Program-made: the position numbers and the translations under genes
Part shown: positions 4,398-60,254 of the stretch, piece by piece
How the letters are laid out: every line of letters starts with the position of its first letter
Numbering within the stretch: the stretch's first letter is position 1
Origin: Escherichia coli
GTDB taxonomy: Bacteria > Pseudomonadota > Gammaproteobacteria > Enterobacterales > Enterobacteriaceae
Assembly (NCBI RefSeq): GCF_030013205.1
Contig: NZ_CP122648.1
Direction: 5' to 3' (one strand)
DNA length: 64,000 bases
Notes under the pieces: generated by a model
What the model saw: only the letters and a program-made list of their open reading frames with translations
Told to the model about the DNA's origin: nothing
Databases searched by the model: none

Positions 4398-5421
<1,024 letters not shown>

Positions 5422-7799: not shown

Positions 7800-8083
7800 T
7801 TTGACGTGGTTTGATGGCCTCCACGCACGTTGTGATATGTAGATGATAATCATTATCGCTTTACGGGTCCTTTCCGGTGATCCGACAGGTTACGGGGCGG
7901 CGACCTCGCGGGTTTTCGCTATTTATGAAAATTTTCCGGTTTAAGGTGTTTCCGTTCTTCTTCGTCGTAACTTAATGTTTTTATTTAAAATACCCCCTGA
8001 AAAGAAAGGAAACGACAGGTGCTGAAAGCGAGCTTTTTGGCCTCTGTCGTTTCCTTTCTCTGTTTTTGTCCGTGGAATGAGCA
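7800..8083 (+). other. Lambda-type cos site (cosQ/cosN/cosB); cosN 12-nt cohesive-end sequence GGGCGGCGACCT at 7895..7906
   Basis: The sequence around 7881-8083 matches the recalled junction of the lambda right and left ends (..TCCGACAGGTTACG | GGGCGGCGACCTCGCGGGTTTTCGCTATTTATGAAAATTTTCCGGTTTAAGG..), followed by the Nu1-like gene. Confidence 0.75.
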
Positions 8084-8629
8084 ATGGAAGTCAACAAAAA
8101 GCAGCTGGCTGACATTTTCGGTGCGAGTATCCGTACCATTCAGAACTGGCAGGAACAGGGAATGCCCGTTCTGCGAGGCGGTGGCAAGGGTAATGAGGTG
8201 CTTTATGACTCTGCCGCCGTTATAAGATGGTATGCCGAAAGGGATGCTGAAATTGAGAACGAAAAGCTGCGCCGGGAAGTTGAAGAACTGCGGCAGGCCA
8301 GCGAGACAGATCTCCAGCCAGGGACTATTGAGTACGAACGCCATCGACTTACGCGTGCGCAGGCCGACGCACAGGAGCTGAAAAATGCCAGAGACTCCGC
8401 TGAAGTGGTGGAAACCGCATTCTGTACTTTCGTGCTGTCGCGGATCGCAGGTGAAATTGCCAGTATTCTCGACGGGATCCCCCTGTCGGTGCAGCGGCGT
8501 TTTCCGGAACTGGAAAACCGACATGTTGATTTCCTGAAACGGGATATCATCAAAGCCATGAACAAAGCAGCCGCGCTGGATGAACTGATACCGGGGTTGC
8601 TGAGTGAATATATCGAACAGTCAGGTTAA
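8084..8629 (+). CDS. nohA: Terminase small subunit (lambda Nu1 homologue)
   Basis: 181 aa MEVNKKQLADIFGASIRTIQNWQEQGMPV..., essentially lambda Nu1 with a winged-HTH N-terminus. Confidence 0.85.
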   Translation: MEVNKKQLADIFGASIRTIQNWQEQGMPVLRGGGKGNEVLYDSAAVIRWYAERDAEIENEKLRREVEELRQASETDLQPGTIEYERHRLTRAQADAQELKNARDSAEVVETAFCTFVLSRIAGEIASILDGIPLSVQRRFPELENRHVDFLKRDIIKAMNKAAALDELIPGLLSEYIEQSG

Positions 8630-10088: not shown

Positions 10089-10149
10089 GGGACGCTTCCT
10101 GAACAACATTAACGCGGTCAGTAAAACAGACTTTGCTGATAAGCGTGGT

Positions 10150-11904: not shown

Positions 11905-12479
11905 TGGCATTCAGAATGAGTGAACAACCACGGACCATAAAAATTTATAATCTGCTGGCCGGAACTAATGAATTTATTGGTGAAGGTGATGCATATATTC
12001 CGCCTCATACAGGTCTGCCAGCAAACAGTACCGATATTGCACCGCCAGATATTCCGGCTGGCTTCGTGGCTGTTTTCAACAGTGATGAGTCATCGTGGCA
12101 TCTCGTTGAAGATCATCGGGGTAAAACGGTTTATGACGTGGCTTCCGGCGACGCGTTATTTATTTCTGAACTCGGTCCGTTACCGGAAAATGTTACCTGG
12201 TTATCGCCGGAAGGGGAGTTTCAGAAGTGGAACGGCACAGCCTGGGTGAAGGATACGGAAGCAGAAAAACTGTTCCGGATCCGGGAGGCGGAAGAAACAA
12301 AAAACAACCTGATGCAGGTAGCCAGTGAGCATATTGCGCCGCTTCAGGATGCTGCAGATCTGGAAATCGCAACGGAGGAAGAAATCTCGTTGCTGGAAGC
12401 ATGGAAAAAGTATCGGGTATTGCTGAACCGTGTTGATACGTCAACTGCACAGGATATTGAATGGCCAGCACTGCCGTAG
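11904..12479 (+). CDS. tfaQ: Tail fibre assembly protein (Tfa family)
   Basis: 191 aa; start overlaps the stf stop; conserved Tfa C-terminal region. Confidence 0.8.
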
Positions 12480-12576
12480 GGTAAAACATATAAATTCTAT
12501 AATTAGATGTATCTTTCCATTTACGGCAAGGAAGGGGGCTTGGAAGACGTAAAGCATCTCACACCGAGATTATTTT

Positions 12577-13167
12577 TTATATGTCAGGTGTCTGAAGTTT
12601 TGCTTTGGCTCTTAAAATGGTTTGCCGCGAGGTTTTGAATTCCCGGGCAATGGCACTTATACTTACACCTGACTTAATTCGTTCGAATACCGCCTGTTTC
12701 TGTTCTTCATTTAACACAGGTGGTCGACCAAAACGTTTCCCTGCGCCGCGGGCACTTACTATCCCGGAATGAGTGCGTTCAAGTAAAAGGTCTCGTTCAA
12801 ATTCAGCGACTGCTGAAATTACTTGCATCATCATTTTTCCTGTTGGACTGGTCAGGTCAATGCCCCCCAATGCTAAGCAATGCACTCTGATACCTGTTTC
12901 GGTCAGTTGTTCCACTGTTTTCCTGATATCCATTGCATTACAACCAAGGCGATCCAGTTTTGTCACAATCAATTGATCACCACATTTCAGGCGAGCAAGC
13001 AACCGGTTAAAACCAGGACGCTCACTGGTTGCTGCTGAGCCGCTAATGTGTTCTTCGATTATTTGCTGAGGTTTGATTTTAAAACCTGCACTTTCGATTT
13101 CCCGGCGTTGATTTTCGGTGGTCTGATCCAGCGTTGATATCCGACAGTAAGCAAAAATTCGAGACAT
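12577..13167 (-). CDS. pinQ: Serine recombinase / DNA invertase (Pin family)
   Basis: 196 aa; N-terminal resolvase catalytic domain (YCRISTLDQ with catalytic Ser) and C-terminal HTH; convergent with tfa. Confidence 0.8.
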
Positions 13168-13483
13168 AGTGAGACTCTATACGAAATTGGTGTTCATATC
13201 ATAATGCATCTCAGAAAATAATTATGATTATTTTTGTGCATATTTGTATGTACACGTTCGAAAATAAACGAATGCGTATGCAACCCCGTAATTTTGGTGA
13301 GACCCAAAATCGATTTTGTGAAAAATGGCTTTAACTCGGTTTGTTTTTCGAGTTCCGGGCGGACTCAAGGAAGAAGAATAGTGTTGCGTGTTATTTTAAC
13401 CAGATTTCAAGTTGTTTGGTCGTGGAAAAGTGGAGCAAAATGTTGTTAAAGTGGAAAAATGATAAAAAAGTAAGTTTATTATA

Positions 13484-13717
13484 TTACATTTTACCATTTA
13501 AATTTTGGTTGTCTTTAAGAACTGATATCGCTGTTTGTAATAATTCTTTGTTATCCAGCCATGATTTTTTCTTTATGTTTCCTTCAATGTAATCAAGCAA
13601 TGTTCTGGTATTGATAGGTCTTCCCTGTTTTGCTACTTCCACTACAGCATCCCCTAGGATAATTCTTACTTCAGGAAGCTGCGCAGGGAACCACTTTAGG
13701 GTGTCTTTTGATTTCAT
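13484..13717 (-). CDS. ydfK: Small prophage protein YdfK-like (77 aa)
   Basis: ORF 13484..13750; internal ATG at 13715-13717 with an AAGGAA Shine-Dalgarno-like sequence gives 77 aa. Confidence 0.55.
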   Translation of the reverse strand: MKSKDTLKWFPAQLPEVRIILGDAVVEVAKQGRPINTRTLLDYIEGNIKKKSWLDNKELLQTAISVLKDNQNLNGKM

Positions 13718-14502
13718 GAAGATATTCCTTAAAATATTATTGATTTTCATTGCGATATTGTATGTCTGATTCAGGATATGTTGACTTATACATCGGTTTT
13801 GTCTGGGTTATTGGATATGCCAATCCCTAATTTTATTAGGGCATGACTAAAAATGCTGAATATGATAAGGAGAGATGTGATTATCAGTATGCTGTTCATA
13901 TAGCCTCGAATTAGTAATGTGTTATATATGATATAGTTGACAATTTTTATCTTGGGTGTTCTTAAAGTTCGTAGATAAACATTGTCGTTTCAGGTATACA
14001 GGAATGCTAACAGGTGGCAGCAAAAATCAGGCGGTTTATGGCGCAAGCTGAAGCGGCAACTGCAAACTATCTTATGCAGAGACTCTACACGGATTGGGTT
14101 TAAAAGTATACATAGATAACAGTTTTTATCTGAAAAAGAAAAATATCAAGGTGATATAGCCTATATGCCTTTGATGCGGAGGAATGAATGTGATGGGAGT
14201 GATGTATCTGAATAGTTGAAAAACCGCAGACACGCCTTATGCAAGAACGTGCTGCGGTTGGCTGGTAAATTTTTCGATAGTGTGAGTATTGAATGATTTC
14301 CAGCCGTTCTTGATTTTACGCATAAATCCATGAAAAAACTACTTATCTGTTGGGGAGTTTTTTTGGGGCATATATGGGACAGAAATAGGCCCCAGATAGA
14401 CACTGAGATCGAACTTAGGATGCTTTTTAAAAAATGCAACTATCTGAAAAAACCTAGAAAACGCCAAGGAAACCACAGGATGGGAAAAAACACCTGTGAA
14501 TT

Positions 14503-23381: not shown

Positions 23382-23417
23382 GCTCCGTTTAACATTCATT
23401 GAGAAAACTGATGCTAC

Positions 23418-23524
23418 TGTGTCAACGATCCGTTATCAGTGCAGGAAAATGCCTGTTAGCGTAAAAGCAAAACACAAATCTATCCATGCAAGCATTCACC
23501 GCCGGTTTACTGGCGGTTTTTTTT
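23418..23524 (+). ncRNA. mgrR: Candidate small RNA (MgrR-like), ending at an intrinsic terminator
   Basis: PhoP-box-like direct repeat AGTTTA-N5-CGTTTA at 23375-23391, then an A/T-rich stretch, then a stem (ACCGCCGG / CTGGCGGT) followed by eight T at 23498-23524; no plausible ORF. Position between dgcZ and mgtS matches the recalled mgrR location. Start coordinate is approximate. Confidence 0.4.
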
Positions 23525-23599
23525 CGCCGTCATAAAAATCAGGCCCCTTGTACACAGTTGTAACAAGGGGCCGGTTAGGTGAGGGATTATCTCCGTTCA

Positions 23600-23695
23600 T
23601 TAGTCATCCCATTTGTGGCTGAAATACGCGGCCAGAAAACCAGAAAATAAAATTATTCCCAGTACGGCCATAAAAACATTCATATTACCCAGCAT
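23600..23695 (-). CDS. mgtS: Small membrane protein MgtS (31 aa)
   Basis: Not in the ORF track (below 60 aa); reverse strand reads ATG CTG GGT AAT ATG ... = MLGNMNVFMAVLGIILFSGFLAAYFSHKWDD, with a GGAGG Shine-Dalgarno sequence 7 nt upstream and a downstream hairpin. Confidence 0.8.
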   Translation of the reverse strand: MLGNMNVFMAVLGIILFSGFLAAYFSHKWDD

Positions 23696-26149: not shown

Positions 26150-26846
26150 ATCGCGGGAAAAAGTACTTTACCTGGAACTCGAAAATATTGCTGTAAAGTA
26201 ACGAATAATCCAGCGGAATAGAGTTACTGTCCACAGCCTGGGTCTGGATTTTAAGTATGGGATCCCGTGGGCTGATCCGTAAAATACTGGCGATTTCTGG
26301 GGTAGGAAAAGTAGGGGAGAAAGTTTCAAAGGTGCCAATGATTTTGATCCCGCATTCGTTCTCAATATACGAAAATTTGGATTTTTGCATATGTGCTACG
26401 GTTAAATCAGGAAAACGTGCCACTGACATCCACGTTTCTTCTAATTGTGCTGCATTATCCTCAATGAATCGCAGTCTCTTTATGTAATAAACCTGCTCAC
26501 CAGTCACTAAATTCAGCTCAGTCGCAATAGGGGGTGAAGCATCCTGCACTTCAAATTTCATAATCTGACTTCCTGCCTCCTTGCCGCTTTTATGCGCAAT
26601 TTCACTGAAGCTGTTCATGTGATCAATGTGTGCAACAAAATTCTTTTTTTGAATATATGTTCCTGAACCATGCTTTCTATGAATAATTCCTTCGCCTTCC
26701 AGCAAGGATAATGCCTTACGCAGGGTATTACGCGAAACATTATAACGAACAGCGAGTTCAGCTTCTGACGGCAACAAATCACCAACATGCCATGAATAGC
26801 CATTGATCTCGGATTTAAGTAAGCGGGCAATCTTTTGAAAAATCAC
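26148..26846 (-). CDS. GntR/HutC-family transcriptional regulator (HTH plus UTRA-like effector domain)
   Basis: 232 aa; N-terminal GntR HTH (LPSEAELAVRYNVSRNTLRKAL); divergent from the PTS operon. Confidence 0.8.
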   Translation of the reverse strand: MIFQKIARLLKSEINGYSWHVGDLLPSEAELAVRYNVSRNTLRKALSLLEGEGIIHRKHGSGTYIQKKNFVAHIDHMNSFSEIAHKSGKEAGSQIMKFEVQDASPPIATELNLVTGEQVYYIKRLRFIEDNAAQLEETWMSVARFPDLTVAHMQKSKFSYIENECGIKIIGTFETFSPTFPTPEIASILRISPRDPILKIQTQAVDSNSIPLDYSLLYSNIFEFQVKYFFPR

Positions 26847-27044
26847 TTTTGCACCTTTTAAGAGCCATTGAAAACAAGGAGTTGAGTCCTGATTGGTTTA
26901 TCGTATGGTCGAGTCGTTTAATTATCACCCTGATGTTGAACAACTTTAGTGCTGTATTACTGTGATCAATGTACCAGGACGTATAGCTACTGCGGGATAT
27001 GATATTTACACAATGTAATCTGTTATATACCAGTAAGGGAAAAT

Positions 27045-27356
27045 ATGAAAAAAATATTGTTAGTTTGCGCTGCGGGCATGTCAACCAGTATGCTGGTTAA
27101 ACGTATGATTGATCATGCTAACGCTATTTCACTTGAAGTTAATATTTCCGCATTGGCGATTGCAGAGGCTAAAGGGAAAATTAAAAATAACGAAGTTGAC
27201 GTTGTTTTACTTGGCCCGCAAGTTCGCTTTCAGAAACCAGAGATTGAAGCTGTTGCACAGGGGAAAATGCCTGTAGCTGTTATCGAGATGAAAGACTATG
27301 GCACCATGAACGGACAGGCAGTTCTTGAATTTGCGATGAAACTACTGCAAGAGTAA
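27045..27356 (+). CDS. PTS EIIB component, lactose/cellobiose family
   Basis: 103 aa; MKKILLVCAAGMSTSMLV with the phosphorylatable Cys near the N-terminus. Confidence 0.8.
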   Translation: MKKILLVCAAGMSTSMLVKRMIDHANAISLEVNISALAIAEAKGKIKNNEVDVVLLGPQVRFQKPEIEAVAQGKMPVAVIEMKDYGTMNGQAVLEFAMKLLQE

Positions 27357-27431
27357 GAATCTAATATTATTAAACTATTACCTGAACTAACTTTTCACAC
27401 ATCATAAAATGGCTATGGCATACATGCTTTA

Positions 27432-28793
27432 TTGGGATGTATAAATATCCAGAACAACAGGTATAAAAAAATGGGATTAATGACCTCATTCGAACGTGGA
27501 ATGGAACGTTTTCTTGTTCCAGTTGCTATCAAGTTAAACTCACAAAAACATGTTGCAGCGGTGAGAGATGGATTCGTTTTTACGTTTCCAATTATCATGG
27601 CAAGCTCATTAATTATATTAATAAACTTTGCCATATTATCGCCAGACGGCTTTATTGCCGGACTGCTGCATCTGAACAGCGTTTTTCCCAACCTTGAAAA
27701 AGCACAAGCTATTTTTACTCCGGTAATGAATGGCTCTGTAAATATCATGTCAATTATGATTGCTTTCCTGGTCGCCAGAAATATGGCGATTAGCTATGAG
27801 CAAGATGATCTTTTATGCGGATTAACGGCAATAGGCGCATTTTTTATTGTTTATACGCCATATCAGATGATAGATGGGCAAGCATTCCTGACGACCAAAT
27901 ATCTCGGCGCACAGGGGTTGTTTGTTGCTGTTATAGTTGCATTAATCACAAGTGAAATATTTTGTCGCTTAGCTCGAAACCCAAAAATCACCATAACGAT
28001 GCCGGCAGCTGTACCTCCTGCGGTAGCGCGTTCATTTAAAGTTTTATTGCCAATATTTTTTGTCATGGTGTTCTTTTCCGCACTTAATTATTGCCTGACA
28101 CTGATATCCCCGGCAGGATTAAACGATCTTATTTACACATTAATCCAGACGCCGCTCAAACATATGGGAACGAATATCTTTGCGGTAATTATCCTGGGGG
28201 CTGTGGGTAATTTCCTTTGGGTGCTGGGGATCCACGGACCTAATACCACCTCGGCAATTCGAGAAACTGTTTTTTCTGAGGCTAATCTGGAGAATCTCTC
28301 CTGGGCCGCTCAACACGGCACTACCTGGGGCGCGCCATATCCGATTACCTGGACTTCTATTAATGATGCATTCGCCAACTGCGGCGGTTCAGGTATGACG
28401 TTGGGGTTATTGTTGGCTATTTTTATCGCTTCTAAGCGTGCGGAATACCGTGATCTGGCAAAAATGTCGTTTATCCCCGGTATTTTCAATATCAATGAAC
28501 CGGTAATGTTCGGCCTTCCTATTGTACTTAACCCCATCATGATGGTGCCGTTTATTCTGGTTCCCATTGTTAACTGTGCCATTGGTTACTTCTTTGTTTC
28601 GATGGAAATTATTCCACCGGTTGCTTATGCCGTGCCCTGGACTACGCCCGGACCTTTAATTGCTTTCCTCGGAACCGGGGGAAACTGGCTGGCGTTACTG
28701 GTGGGTTTTTTATGTTTAGGTGTGGCGACAATGATCTATTTACCTTTTGTTATTGCCGCCAACAAGGTCAATAACATGACAACTAACGGATAA
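27432..28793 (+). CDS. PTS EIIC permease, lactose/cellobiose family
   Basis: 453 aa polytopic membrane protein between the IIB and IIA genes; alternative start at 27472. Confidence 0.8.
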   Translation: MGCINIQNNRYKKMGLMTSFERGMERFLVPVAIKLNSQKHVAAVRDGFVFTFPIIMASSLIILINFAILSPDGFIAGLLHLNSVFPNLEKAQAIFTPVMNGSVNIMSIMIAFLVARNMAISYEQDDLLCGLTAIGAFFIVYTPYQMIDGQAFLTTKYLGAQGLFVAVIVALITSEIFCRLARNPKITITMPAAVPPAVARSFKVLLPIFFVMVFFSALNYCLTLISPAGLNDLIYTLIQTPLKHMGTNIFAVIILGAVGNFLWVLGIHGPNTTSAIRETVFSEANLENLSWAAQHGTTWGAPYPITWTSINDAFANCGGSGMTLGLLLAIFIASKRAEYRDLAKMSFIPGIFNINEPVMFGLPIVLNPIMMVPFILVPIVNCAIGYFFVSMEIIPPVAYAVPWTTPGPLIAFLGTGGNWLALLVGFLCLGVATMIYLPFVIAANKVNNMTTNG

Positions 28794-28814
28794 TCCCATT
28801 TACACAGGAAGGAG

Positions 28815-29132
28815 ATGTTGATGTTTGCAGATGAAGAACTTGTTATGGAGTTACTGATCAACGCGGGACAGGCACGTTCTGATGCGATGGAAGCCATACG
28901 TTGTGCCGGGCAAAAAGACTGGCAGGGCGCAACTCAGCTAATGGCCAGTTCGGAATTAGCCTGTCTTCAGGCACATAAGATTCAGACCGCGTTAATTAGT
29001 CAGGATGAAGGTTGTGGCAAAATAGAAGTTAATTTAATTCTGGTTCATGCACAGGATCATTTGATGAATGCAATATTATGCCAGGATTTAGCCAGGGAAA
29101 TTATTTCATTAAGAAAAGAGCTCCATGCCTGA
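28815..29132 (+). CDS. PTS EIIA component, lactose/cellobiose family
   Basis: 105 aa helical protein with a conserved His (QAHKIQTAL) as in ChbA/CelC-type IIA. Confidence 0.75.
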   Translation: MLMFADEELVMELLINAGQARSDAMEAIRCAGQKDWQGATQLMASSELACLQAHKIQTALISQDEGCGKIEVNLILVHAQDHLMNAILCQDLAREIISLRKELHA

Positions 29133-29184
29133 TTTTTTCCTCCAGTGCGATAGCTGGAGGAAATTATTACACTCTTAAGGATAA

Positions 29185-32325
<3,141 letters not shown>

Positions 32326-48038: not shown

Positions 48039-49031
48039 TTATGGCAATGGGTTATTGGCCCGACGCGCCAGCCACTCTTTAATTTGCTGGCGATGCAGGC
48101 TAACGGAACGACCTACGACAACGACGATAAGTAGCGCACCGGAAAGGGCGCTGGACACCTGATTTGGCACTCCTGCCATTTGCAAACCTTGTTGCAAATA
48201 TCCCACTAATAAAACCGCAATGGCGGTGCCGATAATGGAACCGGAACCACCATAAATATTGGCACCGCCAAGCACCACGGCGGTGATGGCGGGCATCAGA
48301 AACGACGCACCGAGATCGGAACGTGCTGAACCAAAATACGACACCAGCAGCACAGCGGCGACCGCAGACGCCAGCCCCGTCATGGCATAGAGCGCACATA
48401 AGGTACGGTTAACTGGAATCGCGCTATAAAGCGCCACGCGCGGGCTTTGCCCAATCAAAAACACGTTACGTCCGGCATGGGTTTTATGCAGCCAGAGCCA
48501 GAAAACGAGGAGACATATCAGGAAGATAATCAGCGGAACGGGGAGTCCCAGTACATCCAGGTTAGCGAAATCTGTAAACGCCATCGGGAATCCACCAATA
48601 CCTTCGTACCCCGTCGCTCCGGCCATCCCGGAAAGCAGCAGGGCACTTCCGGCAAACAGATACAGCGTGCCAAGCGTAATCACCAGCGGGTTAACTTTGG
48701 TATAGATAATTAATCCGGCGTTGATCAGCCCGCACAATGCGCCGAGCAGTAAGGTCAGAAGAATCGCCAGCGGCATCGGCACACCACTTTGAAACAGTAC
48801 GCCCAATGCAATGGCGCAGAGGCCGATAGTCGAACCAAACGAAATATCGATCCCGCCACTGACAATCACCATCGTCAGCGGTAGGGCGACAATGCCAATG
48901 CAAATAAAGTCACTGGTGCTGAACAGCAACATATTGAGATCTAACATCCGCGGGTTAATTGCACCAAATGCAACAATCTCAATAACGAGCAGTGCGGCAA
49001 GAGCCAGTTCCCAACCGTAGCGAATACGCAT
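48039..49031 (-). CDS. lsrD: AI-2 ABC transporter permease
   Basis: 330 aa membrane permease. Confidence 0.85.
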
Positions 49032-50059
49032 TACGCGGCCTCCCGTTTTTTACCTGACGAAGCGGGTTTAACGGATGGCGGTGGCGTCATAAAGCGGGCA
49101 TATTTTTGCCGCCGCAGATTACGTTCCAGCGCACAACGCAGGCGTCCATCAAACACCAGCACCGCCAGCAGCACGAGGCCCGCGATAAAATCGTTCCACC
49201 ATGCCGGAATGCGCAACAGCACCAGTACACTATCGATCTGCGTCAGGAACCATGCGCCGAGTACCGCACCGATGATCGCGCCGGAACCGCCGAGCAAACT
49301 AATGCCGCCCAGCACGCAGGCTGCAATTGCTTTCATCTCCAGCCCGGTACCGGTCTGGTTGGGGATAAAACCAATCTGCGAAGCAAACACAATTCCCGCC
49401 AGTGCCGCCATGCAGCCGTTCAACGAAAATGCCACAATGCGAATGGCTTCCGTACGAACGCCCAGTTGACGAGCGCCCTGTAAATTATCGCCCGTGACAT
49501 AAAAACTGCGTCCAAACGCCGTCTTTGCCAGCAGCCAGGCCATAAATGCCACCAGAATTATCGTCAACCAACCAATCGCGGAAACGCCAAACAGCAGCGG
49601 TGCGGAGAGCTGTTTCAGTTCGGCGGGTAACCCTTCAATCCATTTGCCGCCAGTCCACAGCAACATGATGCCTCTGTACAACCCTAACGTGCCAAGGGTG
49701 GCAACAATGGCAGGGATCTTTAGCCACGCGACCAGGACACCGTTGAAAAATCCCGCGAGCAAACCAAGCAGTAAAGTCGCGACACAGGCAACAGGTAGTG
49801 AATATCCTGCGTTCAGTAACATCCCCAACAGCACCGCGCACATTCCGGTAATCGAACCCACTGAAACATCAATATTGCGCGTAAGCATTACCAGCGTCGC
49901 GCCCATTGCCAGCAGGATCAGGATTTGCGCGCTGCTATAAACCATGGTCAGCGTTTGCACACTTAAATACTGGCGGTCGAGAAAACCGGGTAATACAAAC
50001 AGCAGCACCACCGCCAGCAGTGCTGTGATTTCACGGTTGTTCTGAATAAATTTCAGCAT
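49031..50059 (-). CDS. lsrC: AI-2 ABC transporter permease
   Basis: 342 aa membrane permease overlapping lsrD and lsrA ends. Confidence 0.85.
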
Positions 50060-51588
50060 GACGCCTCCTGACGCTGACTATCGCCGAAGGCAACGCGCAT
50101 AATGGTCTCGACATTAATATCGCGTCCGGTCAGTGCAGAGTGGGCAATTTCGCCCTGATGCATCACATATACGCGATCTGCCATCAGTTCGATCTCTTCC
50201 AGATCAGAGGAGATAAGCAGCACTGCCACATTCTGTGCGGCGATGCTGCGCAACAGCTGGTAGATATCATTACGGGCTGAGACATCCACGCCGCGCGTCG
50301 GCTCATCGACAATCAATACTTGCGGCGAGGCTTCCAGACATTTGGCAATCAGGATTTTTTGCTGGTTGCCGCCGGATAAGGTCCGCGCAGCTTGTTCCGG
50401 TTGGTTAAATTTAATATTCAGCGCCCGACGATAACGTTCCAGTGTGGCGCTATCTTTCGCGGTTTTCGCCCAGAATCCACGAAGGTTATGAGTAAGGGCG
50501 CAGACGTTCCAGGCCAGCGAAGCATCGAGATTCAGTCCGGATGACTGGCGATCTTCCGGCAGATAAACCAGACCGCGCAGTAAACGTTCTCCAGTGGATA
50601 ATTTATTGATCTCTTTACCATTCAGCATAATGCGTCCGCCACGCAAAGTACGCAGACCATAGAGCGTCTCGGCCAGTTCTGTGCGTCCGGCCCCCACCAG
50701 CCCAGCCAGACCCAGAATTTCTCCGGCATTAAGCGTCAGGCTGACATTCATAAAACCTTCGCCGGTCAGGTTTTCCAGTGTCAGCACCGGCGTTCCGGCG
50801 GCATGTTGTGGGCGGTTGCCAGGTAACTCCAGCCATAATTTTTGGCTGGCAGAGAGCGATTTTTCCCGTAGCGCTGGCGTGATGGCCTGAATAATGTCGT
50901 CGGTAGACAGTTCGCTGGTTTTGCCGCTTAAGGCGATAGTTCCGTCGCGCATCACGCTAATCCGATCGGCAATCTGGCGAATTTCCGGCAGCTTATGCGA
51001 GATAAAAACAATACCCACGCCAGTAGCAAGCAGCTCTTGCAAGCGAGTAAACAAGCGTTCGGTTTCCGCAGGGGTAAGCGAGGCGGTAGGTTCATCGAGG
51101 ATCAGAATCCGCGAGTCGCGCATCAGCCCGCGGAGGATTTCCACCATTTGGCGATCGGCGACATCCAGAGATCCTGCCAGACTATGCAGATCAAACTGGC
51201 AGCCCAGAGCCGCCAGCAAGTTCTTCATTTTCTGCATGGAGAGCTGTTTTTTTGCCAGCCCAAACAGAATGTTTTCTTTTATCGACAGGCTTGGGAAAAG
51301 CAGCGGTTCCTGGGGAACGAGATAAATACCCAACTGATGAGCATGAACTGGCGTTAATCTGGTGTAGTTGTTGCCCCCAATCTCAAGCGTACCGCTATCA
51401 GCAGGGGTAATACCGGCAATAATCTTCATTAACGTCGATTTACCGGCACCATTGCCGCCGAGCAGGGCGTGGACCTCCCCCTGGTGCAACGTAAAATCGA
51501 TGCCTTTCAGGACATTAACCCCTGAATACTGTTTATAAACCGAGCGGGCGCAAAGTAGCGGTAACGCGCGGGTATCACTCGTTTGCAT
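50053..51588 (-). CDS. lsrA: AI-2 ABC transporter ATP-binding protein (tandem ABC domains)
   Basis: 511 aa with two Walker A motifs ([17 protein letters not shown]). Confidence 0.85.
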
Positions 51589-51836
51589 ATTTCCCCCGTT
51601 CAGTTTTGCAGGTGAGTTTTGAACAAATGTATTTCTGCTTTTAATTTGTTCATAACCTTAGGTGGACATTGCACATATTTCCGACGAATAGATCACAATT
51701 TATGCTATTTTGATTTTCACGGTTGCGTTTGTTCATGCTCGTAGAGTCAAACTGTGGTTGCCATCACAGATATAAATGCGCAAGAACTGAACAATTGCAT
51801 TAAAGATTTAAGTATGTTCAAAGTGAAGAATGAATT
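51589..51836. promoter_or_regulatory. Divergent lsrA / lsrR promoter and operator region
   Basis: AT-rich 248-bp intergenic region between the divergent lsrACDBFG and lsrRK operons; individual sites not resolved. Confidence 0.4.
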
Positions 51837-52790
51837 ATGACAATCAACGATTCGGTAATTTCAGAACAGGGAATGTGTGAAGAAGAACAGGTCGCGCGGA
51901 TTGCGTGGTTTTACTACCACGACGGGCTGACCCAGAGTGAGATCAGCGATCGTCTCGGCCTGACCCGTTTGAAAGTGTCGCGATTACTGGAGAAAGGGCA
52001 TCAGTCCGGCATTATTCGCGTACAGATTAATTCTCGCTTTGAAGGCTGTCTGGAATATGAAACACAATTACGTCGTCAGTTTTCGCTGCAACATGTCCGG
52101 GTGATCCCAGGGCTTGCGGATGCTGATGTCGGCGGGCGACTAGGGATAGGCGCGGCGCATATGTTGATGAGTTTACTTCAACCACAACAGATGCTGGCGA
52201 TTGGTTTTGGCGAGGCAACCATGAATACGCTGCAACGCTTAAGTGGTTTTATTTCGTCACAGCAAATTCGCCTGGTCACGCTCTCCGGTGGAGTCGGTTC
52301 TTATATGACGGGTATCGGGCAGCTTAACGCGGCGTGCAGTGTGAATATTATTCCGGCTCCGTTGCGGGCATCCTCCGCTGACATTGCCCGTACGCTAAAA
52401 AATGAAAATTGCGTCAAAGATGTTCTGCTAGCCGCGCAAGCAGCGGATGTGGCGATTGTCGGCATTGGGGCTGTGAGTCAACAAGACGACGCAACAATCA
52501 TTCGCTCCGGCTATATCAGCCAGGGCGAACAGTTAATGATTGGTCGAAAAGGGGCTGTTGGCGACATTTTAGGCTACTTTTTTGATGCAAAAGGTGACGT
52601 TGTCACGGATATCAAAATACATAACGAACTGATTGGCTTACCTTTAAGCGCGCTGAAGACTATTCCCGTCCGGGTTGGCGTTGCAGGGGGAGAAAATAAA
52701 GCCGAAGCAATTGCCGCTGCAATGAAAGGCGGTTATATCAACGCACTGGTTACCGATCAGGATACAGCAGCGGCGATTTTACGTAGTTAA
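51837..52790 (+). CDS. lsrR: SorC-family repressor of the lsr operon
   Basis: 317 aa; N-terminal HTH and sugar-phosphate-binding C-terminal domain. Confidence 0.85.
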
Positions 52791-52868
52791 ATTTGCATGA
52801 CCTTATTACCGGGAATGATGGAGAACGTACAGAGGAACAGACAGAACGCATAAGCCGAGGATAATCTA

Positions 52869-54461
52869 ATGGCTCGACTCTTTACCCCTTCTGAATCAAA
52901 GAACTACCTGATGGCGCTGGATGCAGGTACCGGAAGTATTCGGGCTGTGATATTCGACCTGGAAGGCAATCAAATAGCCGTGGGACAGGCGGAGTGGCGG
53001 CACCTGGCAGTACCGGACGTTCCTGGTTCTATGGAATTTGATCTCAACAAAAACTGGCAACTGGCGTGTGAGTGTATGCGCCAGGCGCTGCACAACGCCG
53101 GCATAGCCCCGGAGTATATCGCTGCCGTTTCGGCATGTTCGATGCGCGAAGGTATTGTTTTATATAACAATGAAGGAACACCGATCTGGGCCTGCGCCAA
53201 TGTGGATGCCAGAGCGGCGCGCGAAGTTAGCGAACTTAAAGAACTGCACAACAATACCTTTGAAAACGAAGTTTATCGCGCCACCGGACAAACGCTGGCT
53301 TTAAGCGCTATTCCCAGATTACTTTGGCTGGCGCACCATCGTTCTGATATCTACCGACAGGCGTCGACCATCACCATGATCAGCGACTGGCTGGCCTATA
53401 TGCTCAGCGGCGAACTGGCGGTGGATCCCTCTAACGCTGGCACCACGGGACTTCTTGATCTAACCACCCGTGACTGGAAACCTGCATTGCTGGATATGGC
53501 CGGACTGCGGGCCGATATTCTTTCTCCTGTCAAAGAAACCGGCACATTGCTGGGCGTGGTAAGTTCACAAGCGGCGGAACTCTGCGGTCTGAAGGCGGGC
53601 ACTCCGGTGGTCGTTGGAGGAGGCGACGTGCAACTTGGTTGCCTGGGGTTAGGTGTTGTCCGTCCGGCACAAACCGCTGTTCTTGGCGGTACATTCTGGC
53701 AGCAAGTTGTAAACTTAGCCGCGCCGGTGACAGACCCAGAAATGAACGTGCGCGTTAATCCTCATGTTATTCCTGGCATGGTACAAGCTGAATCTATAAG
53801 CTTTTTTACCGGACTCACCATGCGCTGGTTCCGCGATGCTTTCTGTGCCGAAGAAAAACTGATTGCCGAACGTTTAGGCATCGACACCTATACGCTGCTG
53901 GAAGAGATGGCCAGTCGGGTGCCGCCTGGGTCGTGGGGCGTAATGCCGATATTCTCCGACAGAATGCGCTTTAAAACCTGGTATCACGCTGCGCCTTCCT
54001 TTATTAACTTGTCCATTGACCCGGATAAATGTAACAAAGCGACATTGTTCCGTGCGCTGGAAGAAAATGCGGCGATTGTATCAGCGTGTAACTTGCAGCA
54101 AATTGCTGATTTCTCGAATATTCATCCCACCTCTCTGGTCTTTGCAGGCGGAGGTTCAAAAGGGAAATTATGGAGTCAAATTCTCGCTGATGTCTCGGGA
54201 TTACCCATCAATATTCCAGTGGTCAAAGAAGCCACTGCATTAGGATGTGCCATTGCAGCTGGCGTCGGTGCCGGAATTTTTTCATCAATGGCAGAAACCG
54301 GAGAACGCCTGGTTCGCTGGGAACGGACGCACACACCAGACCCGGAAAAGCATGAACTTTATCAGGATTCACGCGATAAGTGGCAGGCAGTTTATCAGGA
54401 TCAGCTGGGGCTGGTTGATCATGGACTGACGACGTCGTTATGGAAAGCACCTGGGTTATAG
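52869..54461 (+). CDS. lsrK: Autoinducer-2 kinase (FGGY carbohydrate kinase family)
   Basis: 530 aa FGGY-kinase pattern. Confidence 0.85.
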
Positions 54462-54984
54462 TTTCATTGACAGCCACATCATGATGACCGTGGCTGTTAG
54501 TTTTTGAGTATTCTTATTTCCCTTCTTTTAGAGCTGGCTTGTTAAATGCCAGCTTGCAGATTCATCGTTCCATCGCCAGTAATATATTCAAGGGGAAATT
54601 GCTATTTTTCTTAAAACATTAAGCATAACCCTTATTTTATAGCGAATATTCCTAAAGGCATAAATGAATGAAAAAGAGTTTTAATAGAGTTCTTTTTTAG
54701 CAATTAATGCTATTCTTTGTTAAATATGATGATGGTAATATTCTTATTCACAGAAACAGTTTTCTTATTAAGCAACAATAACTCATGGTTCATTTTTAAA
54801 TAAAATAAGAACTATGCAATTTTTAATCTATCAATTCGAAAGTATTAGCAAATTAGCCAAATTGACACCTTCCCACCTCCAACCAACACTCAATACAGAC
54901 CTCTGACAATTTAATAAGTTTCATTTTTAATGTCTGACGACTCATCTCTTTCGTGGCTGTATTGTTTGTATATGGAGCGTTTAT

Positions 54985-57900
54985 ATGAATAGAATCTATC
55001 GCGTGATATGGAATTGCACCCTACAGGTATTTCAGGCCTGCTCGGAATTGACTCGCAGGGTAGGTAAAACATCAACGGTTAATTTGCGTAAATCCTCTGG
55101 ACTGACAACGAAATTCAGTAGATTGACGCTGGGTGTTTTGCTGGCACTAAGCGGTTCAGCGTCTGGTGCGAGTCTGGAAGTTGATAATGATCAGATTACC
55201 AATATTGATACTGATGTTGCTTATGATGCCTACCTGGTTGGCTGGTATGGCACTGGAGTGCTTAATATTTGGGCTGGCGGTAATGCCTCCTTAACCACTA
55301 TTACTACCAGCGTCATTGGTGGTAATGAGAACTCGAAGGGCACCGTTAATGTTTTGGGTGGCACCTGGCGATTGTATGAACGGGCGAAGCTTTCCGCTAT
55401 ATCTATATCGGTGATGCTGGCGATGGTGAACTTAATGTCTCGAGTGAAGGCAAAGTAGATTCGGGAATTATCACTGCGGGGATGAAAGAAACAGGCACAG
55501 GCAACATTACTGTTAAGGATAAGAACTCCGTTATCACTAATCTCGGAACTAATCTTGGTTATGACGGCCACGGCGAAATGAATATCAGTAATGAGGGGCT
55601 TGTTGTCAGCAACGGAGGAAGCTCACTCGGTTATGGAGAAACCGGCGTCGGGAAGGTTAGCATCACCACGGGGGGGATGTGGGAGGTCAATAAGAATGTC
55701 TATACCACTATTGGTGTTGCGGGCGTCGGAAACCTCAATATCAGCGATGGCGGTAAGTTCGTATCGCAAAATATTACTTTTTTGGGCGATAAAGCAAGCG
55801 GTATCGGCACACTGAACCTGATGGATGCGACATCATTGTTCGATACTGTAGGTATCAATGTCGGTAATTTTGGTAGCGGCATCGTAAATGTCAGTAATGG
55901 TGCCACTCTTAATTCAACGGGCTATGGATTTATCGGAGGAAATGCCTCCGGTAAGGGGATAGTTAATATTTCAACGGATAGTCTCTGGAATTTAAAAACG
56001 TCATCTACTAACGCCCAATTGCTACAGGTCGGTGTATTAGGCGCGGGTGAACTGAATATTACCACCGGAGGTATAGTTAAAGCACGTGATACACAAATAG
56101 CTCTCAATGACAAAAGTAAGGGCGACGTGCGGGTGGATGGGCAGAACTCTCTTCTTGAAACATTCAATATGAACGTAGGGACGACTGGCACAGGTACGTT
56201 AACCCTGACGAATAACGGTACGCTGAATGTCGAAGGTGGAGAAGTTTACTTAGGTGTTTTTGCGCTTGCTGTAGGAACGCTAAACATTGGTGCTGCTCAC
56301 GGTGAGGCGGCGGCAGATGCCGGATTTATCACCAATGCGACGAAAGTGGAGTTTGGTCTTGGCGAAGGCGTTTTTGTCTTTAATCATACCAATAACAGTG
56401 ATGCCGGCTACCAGGTCGATATGCTGATTACGGGTGACGATAAAGACGGAAAAGTGATGCATGATGCAGGCCATACGGTGTTCAATGCAGGGAATACTTA
56501 TAGCGGTAAAACGTTGGTCAATGGCGGCCTCCTGACCATTGCGTCACATACGGCAGATGGGGTAACTGGCATGGGTTCGAGTGAAGTAACCATTGCAAGC
56601 CCCGGTACGCTCGACATTCTCGCATCAACGAACAGTGCGGGAGATTACACGCTGACCAATGCGCTCAAAGGCGATGGCTTGATGCGAGTGCAGCTGTCAT
56701 CCTCCGACAAAATGTTTGGCTTTACCCATGCAGCAGGGACTGAATTCGCCGGTGTTGCCCAACTGAAAGACAGTACCTTCGCACTGGAACGCGACAACAC
56801 CGCTGCGCTTACTCACGCGATGCTGCAGTCTGACAGTGAAAATACCACATCGGTAAAAGTGGGAGAGCAATCCATTGGTGGACTAGCCATGAATGGCGGT
56901 ACGCTCACTTTCGATACGGATATACCTGCTGCGACGCTTGCGGAGGGATATATCAGCGTCGATACACTGGTTGTCGGCGCGGGTGACTACACCTGGAAAG
57001 GCCGTAACTATCAGGTAAACGGGACGGGCGACGTGCTTATCGACGTGCCTAAACCGTGGAATGATCCCATGGCGAATAACCCTCTGACGACGCTCAATTT
57101 GCTGGAACACGATGATAGCCATGTCGGCGTTCAACTGGTGAAGGCGCAAACGGTTATTGGGTCGGGTGGCTCATTAACGTTACGTGATTTACAGGGCGAC
57201 GAGGTGGAAGCGGACAAAACGTTACACATTGCACAAAACGGAATAGTGGTCGCCGAGGGTGATTATGGATTCCGCCTCACGACCGCACCAGGTGATGGTT
57301 TGTACGTTAACTATGGGCTGAAAGCGCTGAACATCCATGGTGGGCAAAAGCTGACGTTAGCCGAACATGGCGGAGCCTATGGCGCAACGGCCGATATGTC
57401 GGCAAAAATCGGTGGTGAAGGGGATCTGGCAATCAATACGGTGCGACAGGTTTCGCTTTCTAACGGTCAGAACGACTATCAGGGGGCAACCTACGTTCAG
57501 ATGGGGACATTACGTACCGATGCGGATGGCGCGCTGGGCAATACTCGGGAACTGAACATCAGCAACGCGGCCATCGTCGATCTTAATGGATCGGCCCAGA
57601 CGGTAGAGACATTCACCGGGCTGATGGGTTCGACTGTTTTGTTTAAAGAGGGGTCGCTGACGGTGAATAAAGGTGGGATCAGTCAGGGCGAACTGACAGG
57701 TGGCGGAAACCTGAATGTTACAGGGGGAACACTGGCTATCGAGGGGCTTAATGCACGCTACAATGCGTTAACCAGCATTAGCCCAAATGCCGAAGTCAGC
57801 CTCGATAATACGCAGGGGTTAGGCAGAGGAAATATTGCCAATGACGGTCTGTTAACGCTAAAAAATGTGACCGGCGAACTGCGTAATAGCATAAGCGGGA

Positions 57901-59777
57901 AGGGTATCGTGAGCGCAACCGCCAGGACAGATGTAGAGCTGGATGGCGATAATAGCCGCTTTGTGGGGCAATTCAACATTGATACAGGCAGCGCGCTCAG
58001 CGTCAACGAGCAGAAAAACCTGGGTGATGCTTCCGTTATCAATAATGGCCTGCTCACCATCTCCACTGAGCGTAGCTGGGCGATGACGCACAATATCAGC
58101 GGTAGCGGTGATGTGACAAAACTGGGTACCGGGATCCTGACTCTTAACAAAGATTCCGCGGCGTATCAGGGTACGACGGATATCGTGGGTGGTGAAATTG
58201 CTTTCGGTTCCGACTCTGCCATTAATATGGCAAGTCAGCACATTAATATCCATAACAGCGGTGTGATGTCGGGAAATGTCACCACTGCAGGTGATGTGAA
58301 CGTTATGCCAGGGGGGACACTGCGTGTCGCTAAAACCACTGTCGGCGGTAACCTGGAGAATGGTGGCACGGTTCAAATGAACAGCGAAGGGGGGAAACCG
58401 GGGAATGTACTGACCGTTAACGGTAACTATACCGGAAACAATGGCCTGATGACGTTCAACGCGACGCTGGGCGGCGATAATTCGCCCACCGATAAGATGA
58501 ACGTGAAAGGCGATACCCAAGGGAATACTCGCGTTCGGGTTGATAACATTGGCGGCGTCGGTGCACAAACGGTCAACGGTATTGAACTCATTGAGGTTGG
58601 CGGTAATTCTGCAGGTAACTTCGCGCTGACCACCGGAACTGTCGAAGCTGGGGCTTACGTCTACACGCTGGCTAAAGGGAAGGGGAATGACGAGAAAAAC
58701 TGGTATCTGACCAGTAAATGGGACGGCGTAACGCCAGCGGATACACCCGATCCCATCAATAATCCCCCTGTTGTGGATCCGGAAGGCCCATCAGTTTATC
58801 GCCCGGAGGCCGGAAGCTATATCAGCAACATTGCCGCAGCCAACTCGCTGTTTAGCCATCGCTTACACGACCGTCTGGGTGAGCCGCAGTATACAGATTC
58901 ACTGCATTCTCAGGGTTCGGCAAGCAGTATGTGGATGCGTCATGTCGGGGGGCACGAACGTTTCAGGACCGGTGACGGGCAGCTAAATACTCAGGCTAAC
59001 CGCTATGTATTGCAGCTAGGAGGCGATTTGGCGCAGTGGAGTAGCAACGCGCAGGATCGCTGGCATCTTGGCGTGATGGCAGGCTACGCCAATCAGCACA
59101 GTAATACTCAGAGTAATCGTGTGGGTTATAAATCGGATGGGCGCATCAGCGGTTACAGCGCAGGACTGTACGCGACCTGGTATCAGAACGATGCGAATAA
59201 GACCGGCGCTTATGTTGACAGCTGGGCGCTGTATAACTGGTTTGATAACAGCGTCAGTTCCGATAACCGTTCTGCTGTCGACTATGATTCTCGCGGTGTG
59301 ACGGCCTCTGTTGAGGGTGGGTATACCTTTGAAGCGGGAACATTTAGCGGCAGCGAAGGGACGCTGAATACCTGGTACGTCCAGCCACAGGCGCAAATCA
59401 CCTGGATGGGTGTGAAAGATTCTGACCATACCCGGAAAGACGGAACACGCATTGAAACGGAAGGCGGCGGAAACGTGCAAACGCGACTTGGGGTGAAAAC
59501 CTACCTGAACAGTCATCACCAGCGTGACAATGGTAAACAGCGTGAGTTCCAGCCTTACATTGAAGCGAACTGGATCAACAACAGCAAAGTCTACGCCGTG
59601 AAGATGAATGGTCAAACCGTAAGCCGTGATGGTGCGCGTAATCTCGGTGAAGTACGTACCGGGGTTGAGGCGAAAGTAAATAACAACCTTAGCCTGTGGG
59701 GGAATGTCGGTGTGCAACTAGGTGATAAAGGCTATAGCGATACTCAGGGCATGCTGGGTGTGAAATATAGCTGGTAA
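54985..59777 (+). pseudogene. yneO: AIDA/Ag43-like autotransporter adhesin disrupted by a frameshift (yneO-like)
   Basis: Extended autotransporter signal peptide (MNRIYRVIWN...) in ORF 54985..55458; the passenger and beta-barrel continue in another frame (ORF 55482..59777, frame open from 55380); C-terminus ends in an aromatic-rich beta-barrel (...GMLGVKYSW). Confidence 0.8.
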
Positions 59778-59852
59778 ACCGTATAAGCCGCATGTCGAAG
59801 ATGCATGCGGCTTAATATTGCCGACTTCAAACGACTTTTAAATCCTCCTTTT

Positions 59853-59966
59853 TATCCGCGATCGCGGATATCGCAGCGTTTATCCCGTAGAGCGGATAAG
59901 ATGTGTTTCCATATTGACTTTATCCTCACTAAAGGATAAAACTGATAATATCCCCTTGAGCGGATA
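59853..59966. promoter_or_regulatory. hipBA operator array: four TATCC-N8-GGATA palindromes (59853-59870, 59881-59898, 59921-59938, 59949-59966)
   Basis: Four exact matches to the HipB operator consensus, read directly from the sequence upstream of hipB. Confidence 0.8.
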
Positions 59967-59987
59967 AATTTGCTGTGGACGTATGAC

Positions 59988-60254
59988 ATGATGAGCTTTC
60001 AGAAGATCTATAGCCCAACGCAATTAGCGAATGCAATGAAACTGGTTCGTCAGCAAAATGGCTGGACGCAGAGCGAGCTGGCGAAAAAAATCGGCATTAA
60101 GCAGGCGACAATTTCCAATTTCGAAAACAACCCTGACAATACCACGCTGACGACATTTTTTAAGATTTTACAGTCGCTTGAACTCTCAATGACGCTATGC
60201 GACACGAAAAATGCCTCGCCAGAATCAACAGAACAGCAAGATCTGGAGTGGTAA
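59988..60254 (+). CDS. hipB: Antitoxin HipB (Xre-type HTH)
   Basis: 88 aa MMSFQKIYSPTQLANAMKLVRQQNGWTQSELAKKIG...; stop overlaps the hipA start. Confidence 0.9.
   Translation: MMSFQKIYSPTQLANAMKLVRQQNGWTQSELAKKIGIKQATISNFENNPDNTTLTTFFKILQSLELSMTLCDTKNASPESTEQQDLEW

What the first reader, a model, noticed from the sequence alone, without database searches (positions are those of the whole stretch)
54462..59777. Large AIDA/Ag43-type autotransporter inactivated by a frameshift just after the signal peptide, behind a roughly 500-bp AT-rich upstream region
The extended signal peptide (MNRIYRVIWN...) is in one frame (to 55458), while the passenger domain (YIGDAGDGELNVSSEGKVDSG... and about 1400 further residues ending in a beta-barrel) is in another frame open from 55380. 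The shift therefore lies within 55380-55458, probably a single-base indel. The 523-bp upstream region (54462-54984) is strongly AT-rich, as expected for a xenogeneically silenced locus.
Basis: seen in the sequence. Interest (0 to 1): 0.4.

Follow-up and report, generated by a model that had tools for sequence, protein, structure and literature searches.

The report
Autotransporter gene killed by 628-bp deletion
This is the E. coli yneO/ECSE_1600 surface-adhesin gene, inactivated by a 628-base deletion (not a single-base slip) that is shared by one pig-associated lineage; it is an ordinary pseudogene that public annotation already flags.

Summary
The two-frame layout is real. ORF1 (54985-55458) carries an ESPR extended signal peptide. 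The passenger, autochaperone and beta-barrel continue in another frame, open from 55380 to 59777. The cause is not a single-base indel. Alignment with an intact 5421-bp allele shows a 628-bp deletion (gene positions 394-1021, 209 codons plus 1 nt). Its junction lies at window 55378-55380 and has only a 2-nt GA microhomology. The identical junction occurs in 17 of 5426 complete E. coli genomes, all from pigs or wild boar (ETEC, O139:H1). It is therefore a real, lineage-specific lesion and not a sequencing error. RefSeq already annotates it as a "frameshifted" ECSE_1600 family autotransporter. The gene is the orthologue of the K-12 pseudogene yneO (ydeK/ydeU), between lsrK and hipB. In a sample of 15 other genomes, 10 carry other lesions and 5 are intact. 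The upstream spacer (GC 0.316) is the most AT-rich stretch of the window. It contains the K-12 yneO promoter motif, and the K-12 spacer is a reported H-NS binding site. The coding region has GC 0.509 and sits at a fixed chromosomal position, so "xenogeneic" is not supported. Verdict: already known, low interest.

The parts
54462..54984 (.). AT-rich lsrK-autotransporter intergenic spacer (GC 0.316; core 54600-54860 GC 0.241)
   Evidence: lowest-GC 523-bp stretch of the 64-kb window. It is 94.8% identical to the K-12 lsrK-yneO spacer. That K-12 spacer is listed as holding an H-NS site and an RpoD promoter (PMC3946193) and an RpoS holoenzyme site (PMC5493296).
54903..54931 (+). Promoter motif CTGACA-17-TTTAAT, identical to the one reported for K-12 yneO
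   Evidence: the only match in the window, with 0 expected in shuffles. The motif as written is in PMC3946193. Activity in this strain was not tested. The simple consensus scan did not list it; I count 8 of 12 hexamer matches, below that scan's threshold of 9.
54974..54977 (+). GGAG Shine-Dalgarno-like motif 7 nt before the ATG
   Evidence: Read directly from the sequence; inference.
54985..55458 (+). ORF1: 157 codons. Residues 1-131 are native (ESPR signal peptide plus the first ~70 passenger residues); 26 out-of-frame residues follow, then TAG.
   Evidence: Pfam ESPR covers residues 1-48. NF011422 profile positions 1-134 are matched.
55378..55380 (+). Deletion junction. GA (55378-55379) is the 2-nt microhomology. 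628 bp of the intact allele are missing between it and 55380.
   Evidence: window 48906-55379 aligns to L001 1-6480 and window 55378-61652 aligns to L001 7107-13355. MAFFT gives a deletion of gene positions 394-1021.
55380..59777 (+). Remaining passenger, autochaperone and beta-barrel in the shifted frame (1465 codons; first ATG at 55482 gives a 1431-aa ORF with no signal peptide)
   Evidence: NF011422 positions 342-1806 matched, 3362 bits. No other indel relative to the intact allele.
58350..58670 (+). Autochaperone (AC_1) / pertactin-like junction region
   Evidence: PF18883 at residues 991-1097 of the 55380-frame translation, PF03212 at 994-1111. PDB IcsA autochaperone hits 3ml3 and 5ke1.
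58929..59708 (+). Autotransporter beta-barrel translocator domain
   Evidence: PF03797 at residues 1184-1443, E 1.4e-41. TIGR01414 scores 410 bits. PDB 4mee (annotated 'Diffuse adherence adhesin') matches at E 3.5e-87.

Best explanation
The locus is the E. coli chromosomal autotransporter gene of the ECSE_1600 family (K-12 yneO, formerly ydeK/ydeU), lying between lsrK and hipBA. The intact gene encodes an 1806-aa type Va autotransporter. Its parts are an ESPR extended signal peptide, a long repeat-rich passenger presumed to be a beta-helix, an autochaperone, and a 12-stranded beta-barrel like that of AIDA-I. By homology it is a surface adhesin, but I found no functional study. In this window an ancestor of a pig-associated lineage (O139:H1 and ETEC isolates) lost 628 bp of the N-terminal passenger. 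The event was an illegitimate deletion with only a GA microhomology. Because 628 = 3 x 209 + 1, everything downstream is out of frame. Translation from the ATG at 54985 stops at 55456-55458 and yields a 157-aa fragment. The remaining 1465 codons have no signal peptide, so even if translation restarts at the ATG at 55482 the product cannot be exported. The gene is an irreversible pseudogene. The AT-rich spacer upstream is the gene's native promoter region and is conserved with K-12, where RpoD and H-NS binding are reported. H-NS repression in this strain is inferred, not shown.
For: A deletion rather than an indel: 628-bp gap at gene positions 394-1021, no other indel; junction sequences. NF011422 profile positions 135-341 are missing. 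Real and lineage-specific: one search finds the identical 161-bp junction in 17 of 5426 genomes, all pig or wild boar, while about 4100 genomes match the two halves separately. One search shows the 17 alleles are 99.9-100% identical to the window. One search shows the window is 99.97% identical to O139:H1 W13-16 over 50 kb. Polarity: the nearest undeleted allele (CFSAN018748) differs at only 2 of the shared 4793 bases. PGAP marks the gene 'frameshifted' in K_EC180 and W13-16. Identity and architecture. Synteny with K-12 yneO b4696. Recurrent decay elsewhere: 10 of 15 sampled genomes are disrupted, by G-run frameshifts, an IS3 insertion, a truncation and internal stops. SE11 paper Table 4 agrees. 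Promoter and H-NS.
Against: No expression or protein data exist for this strain. The signal-peptide cleavage site and the beta-helix fold are inferred, not computed. H-NS binding is reported only for K-12, from in vitro genomic SELEX. The nearest undeleted relative carries its own G7-to-G6 frameshift inside the deleted stretch. The gene may therefore already have been dead when the deletion occurred, or that frameshift may be an assembly error.
Confidence: 0.93

Rival explanations
1. A single-base indel within 55380-55458 causes the frameshift.
For: The two open frames overlap by 79 nt, which is what a small indel would also produce. Other alleles of this gene do carry 1-bp G-run frameshifts: K-12 at position 3953 and CFSAN018748 at position 774.
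Against: Alignment with three undeleted alleles shows one 628-bp gap and no other indel in the window's gene. The gene is 4793 bp here against 5421 bp when intact.
Confidence: 0.01
2. The gap is a sequencing or assembly artefact, such as collapse of passenger repeats, and the real gene is continuous.
For: The passenger is repetitive (9 TIGR04393 repeat matches in the intact protein), and repeats can collapse in assemblies.
Against: Seventeen independent complete assemblies, with France and South Korea confirmed for the two records opened, have the identical junction at 100% identity. The flanks of the deletion share only 2 nt and about 29% identity over 80 nt, which is chance level. That gives no basis for repeat collapse.
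Confidence: 0.02
3. The split gene is still functional, through ribosomal frameshifting in the 55380-55458 overlap or as a two-part system.
For: ORF2 is fully open for 1465 codons with no further lesion. ORF1 ends ...GCA AAG TAG, and A-AAG next to a stop codon can support low-level -1 slippage (my own knowledge, not tested).
Against: There is no X-XXY-YYZ slippery heptamer in the ORF1 frame of the overlap (read). ORF2 from the ATG at 55482 starts MKETGTGNITVKD..., with no hydrophobic signal sequence. The deletion is too recent for an open ORF2 to indicate selection: only 2 differences from the nearest undeleted allele. K_EC180's gene is a further 3 bp shorter (4790 against 4793 bp). The matched span in ETEC1701 is 1 bp shorter, position not examined.
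Confidence: 0.02
4. The locus is a horizontally acquired (xenogeneic) island kept silent by H-NS, and the pseudogenisation follows from long-term silencing.
For: The spacer is the most AT-rich part of the window. The K-12 spacer is marked as an H-NS site. The gene is absent from the B2 strains CFT073, UTI89 and 536 and from about 24% of complete genomes. It decays often.
Against: The coding region has GC 0.509, with no AT bias. The gene occupies the same lsrK-hipB position in every genome examined and has no flanking mobile genes or tRNA. AT-rich, H-NS-bound promoter regions are also common for native E. coli adhesin genes (my own knowledge).
Confidence: 0.15

Closest known systems
E. coli K-12 yneO (b4696; formerly ydeK b1510 / ydeU b1509) pseudogene
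   Same: Orthologous locus between lsrK and hipB, about 97% DNA identity. It is also a pseudogene of the same autotransporter and has the same AT-rich spacer with the CTGACA-17-TTTAAT promoter motif.
   Different: K-12 is inactivated by a 1-bp gain in a G-run at gene position 3953 and keeps the full 5422 bp. The window's allele has the intact sequence at that site but lacks positions 394-1021.
ECSE_1600 of E. coli SE11, and NCBIfam NF011422 'ECSE_1600 family autotransporter' (1806 aa, intact)
   Same: The window's two frames together match profile positions 1-134 and 342-1806. The downstream frame alone scores 3362 bits against a cut-off of 2335.
   Different: Profile positions 135-341 are absent and the two parts are in different frames. 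The SE11 protein is intact; it was proposed to be an adhesin only on the basis of its pertactin motif (PMC2608844).
AIDA-I (diffuse adherence adhesin; PDB 4mee, annotated 'Diffuse adherence adhesin'; NCBIfam NF033176)
   Same: The C-terminal autochaperone plus beta-barrel unit is clearly homologous (E 3.5e-87 to 4mee over residues 1345-1806 of the intact protein). Overall type Va architecture is the same.
   Different: Scores 343-358 bits against the AIDA-I model (cut-off 1200), with the match confined to the C-terminal third or so. The passenger is not AIDA-I-like by sequence. No adjacent glycosyltransferase gene is present.
Salmonella MisL (NF011841) and ShdA (NF011847); E. coli YfaL/EhaC (NF007285)
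   Same: Homologous translocator domains, with partial matches of 204-470 bits.
   Different: All score far below their curated cut-offs (1297, 2249 and 1459), with the best matched stretches confined to the C-terminal region.

Membership tests
Type Va (classical, AIDA-I-type) autotransporter | N-terminal Sec signal peptide (here the extended ESPR type) | tested here: met
   PF13018 ESPR, 58.1 bits (cut-off 25), residues 1-48 of ORF1. The hydrophobic core LTLGVLLALSG and an SASG/A cleavage motif were read from the sequence.
Type Va (classical, AIDA-I-type) autotransporter | C-terminal beta-barrel translocator domain | tested here: met
   PF03797 at 143 bits and TIGR01414 at 410 bits. PDB 4mee at E 3.5e-87.
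Type Va (classical, AIDA-I-type) autotransporter | Autochaperone / pertactin-like junction and a repeat-rich beta-helical passenger | tested here: met
   PF18883 at 91 bits, PF03212 at 40 bits, PATR at 29 bits, and TIGR04393 repeats in 4 stretches. The beta-helix fold itself was not modelled.
Type Va (classical, AIDA-I-type) autotransporter | Signal peptide, passenger and barrel in one polypeptide (needed for secretion) | tested here: not met
   The signal peptide is in the 54985 frame, which ends at 55458. The passenger and barrel are in the frame open from 55380. It is a pseudogene of this family, not a functional member.
ECSE_1600 family autotransporter (NCBIfam NF011422) / K-12 yneO orthologue | Whole-protein score above the curated cut-off of 2335 bits | tested here: met
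   3362.5 bits for the 55380-59774 translation; the intact allele scores 4135.6.
ECSE_1600 family autotransporter (NCBIfam NF011422) / K-12 yneO orthologue | Full-length coverage of the 1806-position profile | tested here: not met
   Positions 1-134 and 342-1806 are covered; positions 135-341 are deleted.
ECSE_1600 family autotransporter (NCBIfam NF011422) / K-12 yneO orthologue | Conserved position between lsrK and hipB | tested here: met
AIDA-I proper (NF033176) | Score of at least 1200 bits over the full length | tested here: not met
   342.6 bits, confined to the C-terminal region.
Ag43 / self-associating autotransporters | Sequence match to an Ag43 passenger | tested here: inconclusive
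   No Ag43-named family appears among the 8 NCBIfam hits at E<=0.01, and no Ag43 structure appears among the PDB hits at E<=1e-5. I did not verify that an Ag43 model is in the library.
H-NS-silenced xenogeneic locus | AT-rich relative to the host genome | tested here: inconclusive
   Spacer GC 0.316 meets this; coding region GC 0.509 does not.
H-NS-silenced xenogeneic locus | H-NS occupancy and derepression in an hns mutant | not testable with these tools
   The only evidence is that the K-12 lsrK-yneO spacer is marked HNS by genomic SELEX (PMC3946193).
H-NS-silenced xenogeneic locus | Signs of horizontal acquisition (mobile-element or tRNA flanks, variable position) | tested here: not met
   Same lsrK-hipB position in all genomes examined and no mobile genes at the flanks. 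Present in 4144 of 5426 genomes.

The most novel reading that the evidence does not exclude
The repeated, independent destruction of this autotransporter could reflect selection for its loss rather than neutral decay, for example escape from host immunity or a cost of expression. The lesions seen are the 628-bp deletion here, G-run slips in K-12 and CFSAN018748, an IS3 insertion, truncations and stops, together affecting 10 of 15 other genomes sampled. The 628-bp deletion would then be a pathoadaptive marker, not merely a clonal one, of the pig edema-disease/ETEC O139:H1 lineage.
Probability: 0.1. Interest if true: 0.3.

Novelty: already known. Interest (0 to 1): 0.1.

Why it matters
It matters little biologically. 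Cryptic and decayed autotransporter genes are common in E. coli. This one is a named pseudogene in K-12 (yneO) and is flagged "frameshifted" by PGAP in the genomes that share this allele. The useful results are a correction and a marker. The lesion is a 628-bp out-of-frame deletion, so it cannot revert and is not a candidate phase switch. Its exact junction (TTGTATGA|ACGGGCG at 55378-55380) is a simple PCR-sized marker, 161 bp against 789 bp, for a clonal pig-associated lineage: 17 of 5426 complete genomes. The function of the intact 1806-aa protein appears not to have been studied in the literature I could search.

Tried and rejected
1. Single-base indel. Rejected by alignment.

2. Repeat-mediated in-frame recombination. 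The breakpoints fall at roughly equivalent positions of two passenger repeats (GGTWRLYD|S and KGHWNFLG|T). However, DNA identity around them is at chance level (21-26 of 80 at any offset) and only GA is shared. This is illegitimate microhomology joining, not homologous recombination.

3. A phase-variable G tract as the general cause of frameshifts. The G7 tract at gene positions 768-774 is G7 in 10 of the 11 alleles where it could be scored, whether intact or frameshifted. Only CFSAN018748 has G6. This is not supported, and the tract is deleted in the window anyway.

4. Programmed -1 frameshifting. No slippery heptamer is present in the overlap.

5. A known RNA element in the spacer. The Rfam gathering-threshold scan of the whole window found nothing between 54462 and 54984.

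6. The consensus promoter/terminator scan gave no more sites than shuffles and missed the published 8-of-12 promoter.

7. Literature on function. Searches for yneO, ydeK, ydeU and ECSE_1600 with 'autotransporter' returned only genome-scale papers. One search failed on syntax.

8. The large protein and metagenome searches and structure prediction were not used. The E. coli genome collection answered the question.
Full report
**What is in the sequence**

- An ATG at 54985, preceded by GGAG at 54974-54977, opens a 157-codon ORF ending at TAG 55456-55458.
- A second frame is open from 55380, just after a TGA at 55377-55379, to the stop at 59775-59777. That is 1465 codons, with the first ATG at 55482.
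- Pfam finds ESPR (residues 1-48, 58 bits) in the first ORF. In the second frame it finds PATR, autochaperone AC_1, Pertactin and the Autotransporter beta-domain.
- NCBIfam places both parts in NF011422, 'ECSE_1600 family autotransporter'. ORF1 covers profile positions 1-134. The second frame covers 342-1806 at 3362 bits, against a cut-off of 2335.
- Profile positions 135-341 are missing. That was the first sign that the lesion is not a point indel.

**The lesion is a 628-bp deletion**

- An 801-bp probe across the region matched about 4100 E. coli genomes, but always as two pieces spanning 1429 bp.
- BLAST against the intact allele of strain CFSAN061763 (L001, gene 6086-11506, 5421 bp, 1806 aa) aligns window 48906-55379 to L001 1-6480. 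It aligns window 55378-61652 to L001 7107-13355.
- A MAFFT alignment of four alleles gives a single gap in the window, at gene positions 394-1021 (628 bp), and no other indel.
- The junction reads TTGTATGA|ACGGGCG. The left parental flank is TTGTATGA|TAGCGG and the right is CTCGGA|ACGGGC, so only GA is shared.
- Sequence identity around the two breakpoints is at chance level (21-26 of 80). This is an illegitimate microhomology deletion, although at the protein level both breakpoints fall just after a conserved G-x-W-x-x-x motif of the passenger repeat.
- 628 = 3 x 209 + 1, which explains the frameshift.
- The deletion removes about five of the nine TIGR04393 repeat matches of the intact passenger.

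**Real or artefact, and whose allele is it**

- A 161-bp probe across the junction matched as a single full-length piece at 100% identity in 17 of 5426 complete genomes.
- All 17 are from pigs or wild boar: O139:H1 strains W13-16 and P15-25, K_EC180, EC556, EC571, EC581 and eleven 'ETEC' isolates. About 4100 other genomes match the two halves as separate places.
- Over the whole 5316-bp finding these 17 are 99.9-100% identical to the window. The window is 99.97% identical to W13-16 over 50 kb.
- Seventeen independent assemblies exclude an assembly artefact.
- PGAP already annotates the gene as 'ECSE_1600 family autotransporter, frameshifted' in the two of these genomes I opened.
- The nearest undeleted allele is the pig isolate CFSAN018748, which differs at 2 of the shared 4793 bases. 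It carries its own G7-to-G6 frameshift at gene position 774, inside the deleted stretch.
- I cannot tell whether that frameshift is real or a long-read error. I therefore cannot tell whether the gene was already dead when the deletion happened.

**Identity of the gene**

- The gene lies between lsrK (52869-54461) and hipBA (59988-61576).
- It is the orthologue of the K-12 pseudogene yneO (b4696, formerly ydeK/ydeU).
- K-12 is inactivated differently, by a 1-bp gain in a G-run at gene position 3953.
- The name ECSE_1600 comes from the commensal strain SE11, where the 1806-aa gene is intact. Its authors proposed it as an adhesin only because it contains a pertactin motif. Their Table 4 lists it as disrupted in MG1655, E24377A and O157 Sakai, intact in HS, and absent from three B2 strains (PMC2608844).
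- My own sample of 15 other genomes gives 5 intact and 10 disrupted. The sample was picked by spread down the similarity ranking, so it is neither random nor phylogenetically balanced.
- The disrupted alleles include frameshifts with gene lengths of 5419, 5420, 5422 and 5429 bp, an IS3 insertion, a C-terminal truncation and internal stops.
- The G7 tract at positions 768-774 is unchanged in 10 of 11 scorable alleles. There is no general phase-variation tract.

**Relation to AIDA-I and Ag43**

- By sequence, the only solved relatives are PDB 4mee (annotated 'Diffuse adherence adhesin'; E 3.5e-87 over residues 1345-1806 of the intact protein) and the IcsA autochaperone. My identification of 4mee as the AIDA-I translocation unit comes from my own knowledge.
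- Against NCBIfam's AIDA-I model the score is 343-358 bits, with a cut-off of 1200, and the match is confined to the C-terminal part. MisL, ShdA and YfaL/EhaC likewise score far below their cut-offs, with their best matched stretches in the C-terminal region.
- 'AIDA-type' is therefore correct for the secretion architecture. The gene is not an orthologue of AIDA-I, and nothing links its passenger to Ag43.

**The upstream region**

- GC is 0.316 for 54462-54984 and 0.241 for the core 54600-54860. The window averages 0.474 and the gene 0.509.
- The lowest-GC 523-bp window of all 64 kb starts at 54493.
- The spacer is 94.8% identical to that of K-12.
- It contains, once and at 54903-54931, the motif CTGACA-17-TTTAAT. 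Shimada et al. list this as the RpoD constitutive promoter of yneO, in a spacer they mark as an H-NS binding site by genomic SELEX (PMC3946193).
- The same spacer is listed among RpoS holoenzyme sites (PMC5493296).
- No Rfam family matches the spacer.
- H-NS repression of this promoter is a reasonable inference, but it has not been shown for this strain.
- The 'xenogeneic' part is not supported. The coding sequence has typical E. coli composition and no mobile genes flank it. The gene sits at the same position in every genome examined, and a match is present in 4144 of 5426 genomes.

**Mechanistic consequence (inferred)**

- Transcription from the native promoter, if not silenced, gives an mRNA whose first ORF yields a 157-aa product. 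That product is the signal peptide, about 70 native passenger residues and 26 missense residues.
- The downstream 1431-aa ORF (ATG at 55482, 24 nt after the ORF1 stop) begins MKETGTGNITVKD... and has no signal sequence. Any product would stay in the cytoplasm and could not reach the Bam machinery.
- The overlap holds no X-XXY-YYZ slippery heptamer. Only a weak A-AAG next to the stop is present.
- K_EC180's gene is 3 bp shorter (4790 against 4793 bp). The matched span in ETEC1701 is 1 bp shorter, and I did not locate that indel.
- The gene is an irreversible pseudogene.

**Verdict**

- The feature is already known and annotated, and it is of low interest.
- The one modestly useful product is the exact deletion junction, which marks a clonal pig-associated E. 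coli lineage.

Noticed in passing
window 1-14000 (approx.): Qin-like cryptic prophage remnant, going by the annotation of the near-identical genome W13-16. It includes cspB, cspF, cspI, ydfK, pinQ, tfaQ, nohA, rrrQ and essD. An IS66 element (tnpA, tnpB, tnpC) lies between a truncated tail-fibre gene and a truncated terminase gene. Rfam cspA thermoregulator hits at 2736-3128 and 5638-6022, and an IS009 RNA at 12247-12445.
   Followed up: partly
window 23393-23606 (+): Full-length Rfam STnc560 Hfq-binding sRNA, 280 bits. It lies next to the mgtS/mgtT small-protein genes annotated in W13-16. I believe this is MgrR, from my own knowledge; I did not check.
   Followed up: no
window ~61973-62871 (-): A LysR-family regulator gene just beyond hipA is annotated 'frameshifted' in W13-16 and K_EC180, which share the deletion allele, but intact in CFSAN018748. 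This is a second pseudogene close to the finding.
   Followed up: no
window ~26150-32320: A cluster of cellobiose-type PTS subunits IIA, IIB and IIC, a carbohydrate porin, a 6-phospho-beta-glucosidase and a GntR regulator sits between marB and eamA (annotation of W13-16). From memory K-12 has no such cluster there, so it may be an accessory insertion. I did not check.
   Followed up: no
L004 (CFSAN018748) 530-1329 and 9420-10461: The nearest undeleted relative has lost most of lsrA and lsrR (only fragments remain, directly abutting) and has a frameshifted hipA. The neighbourhood is decaying in different ways in closely related pig strains.
   Followed up: no
window 59988-61576: The hipBA toxin-antitoxin module immediately downstream is intact here: hipB 59988-60254 and hipA 60254-61576, overlapping by 1 nt. 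The K-12 hipB-yneO spacer is listed as holding an RpoD promoter for hipBA and a strong RpoS holoenzyme site (value 94.4).
   Followed up: no
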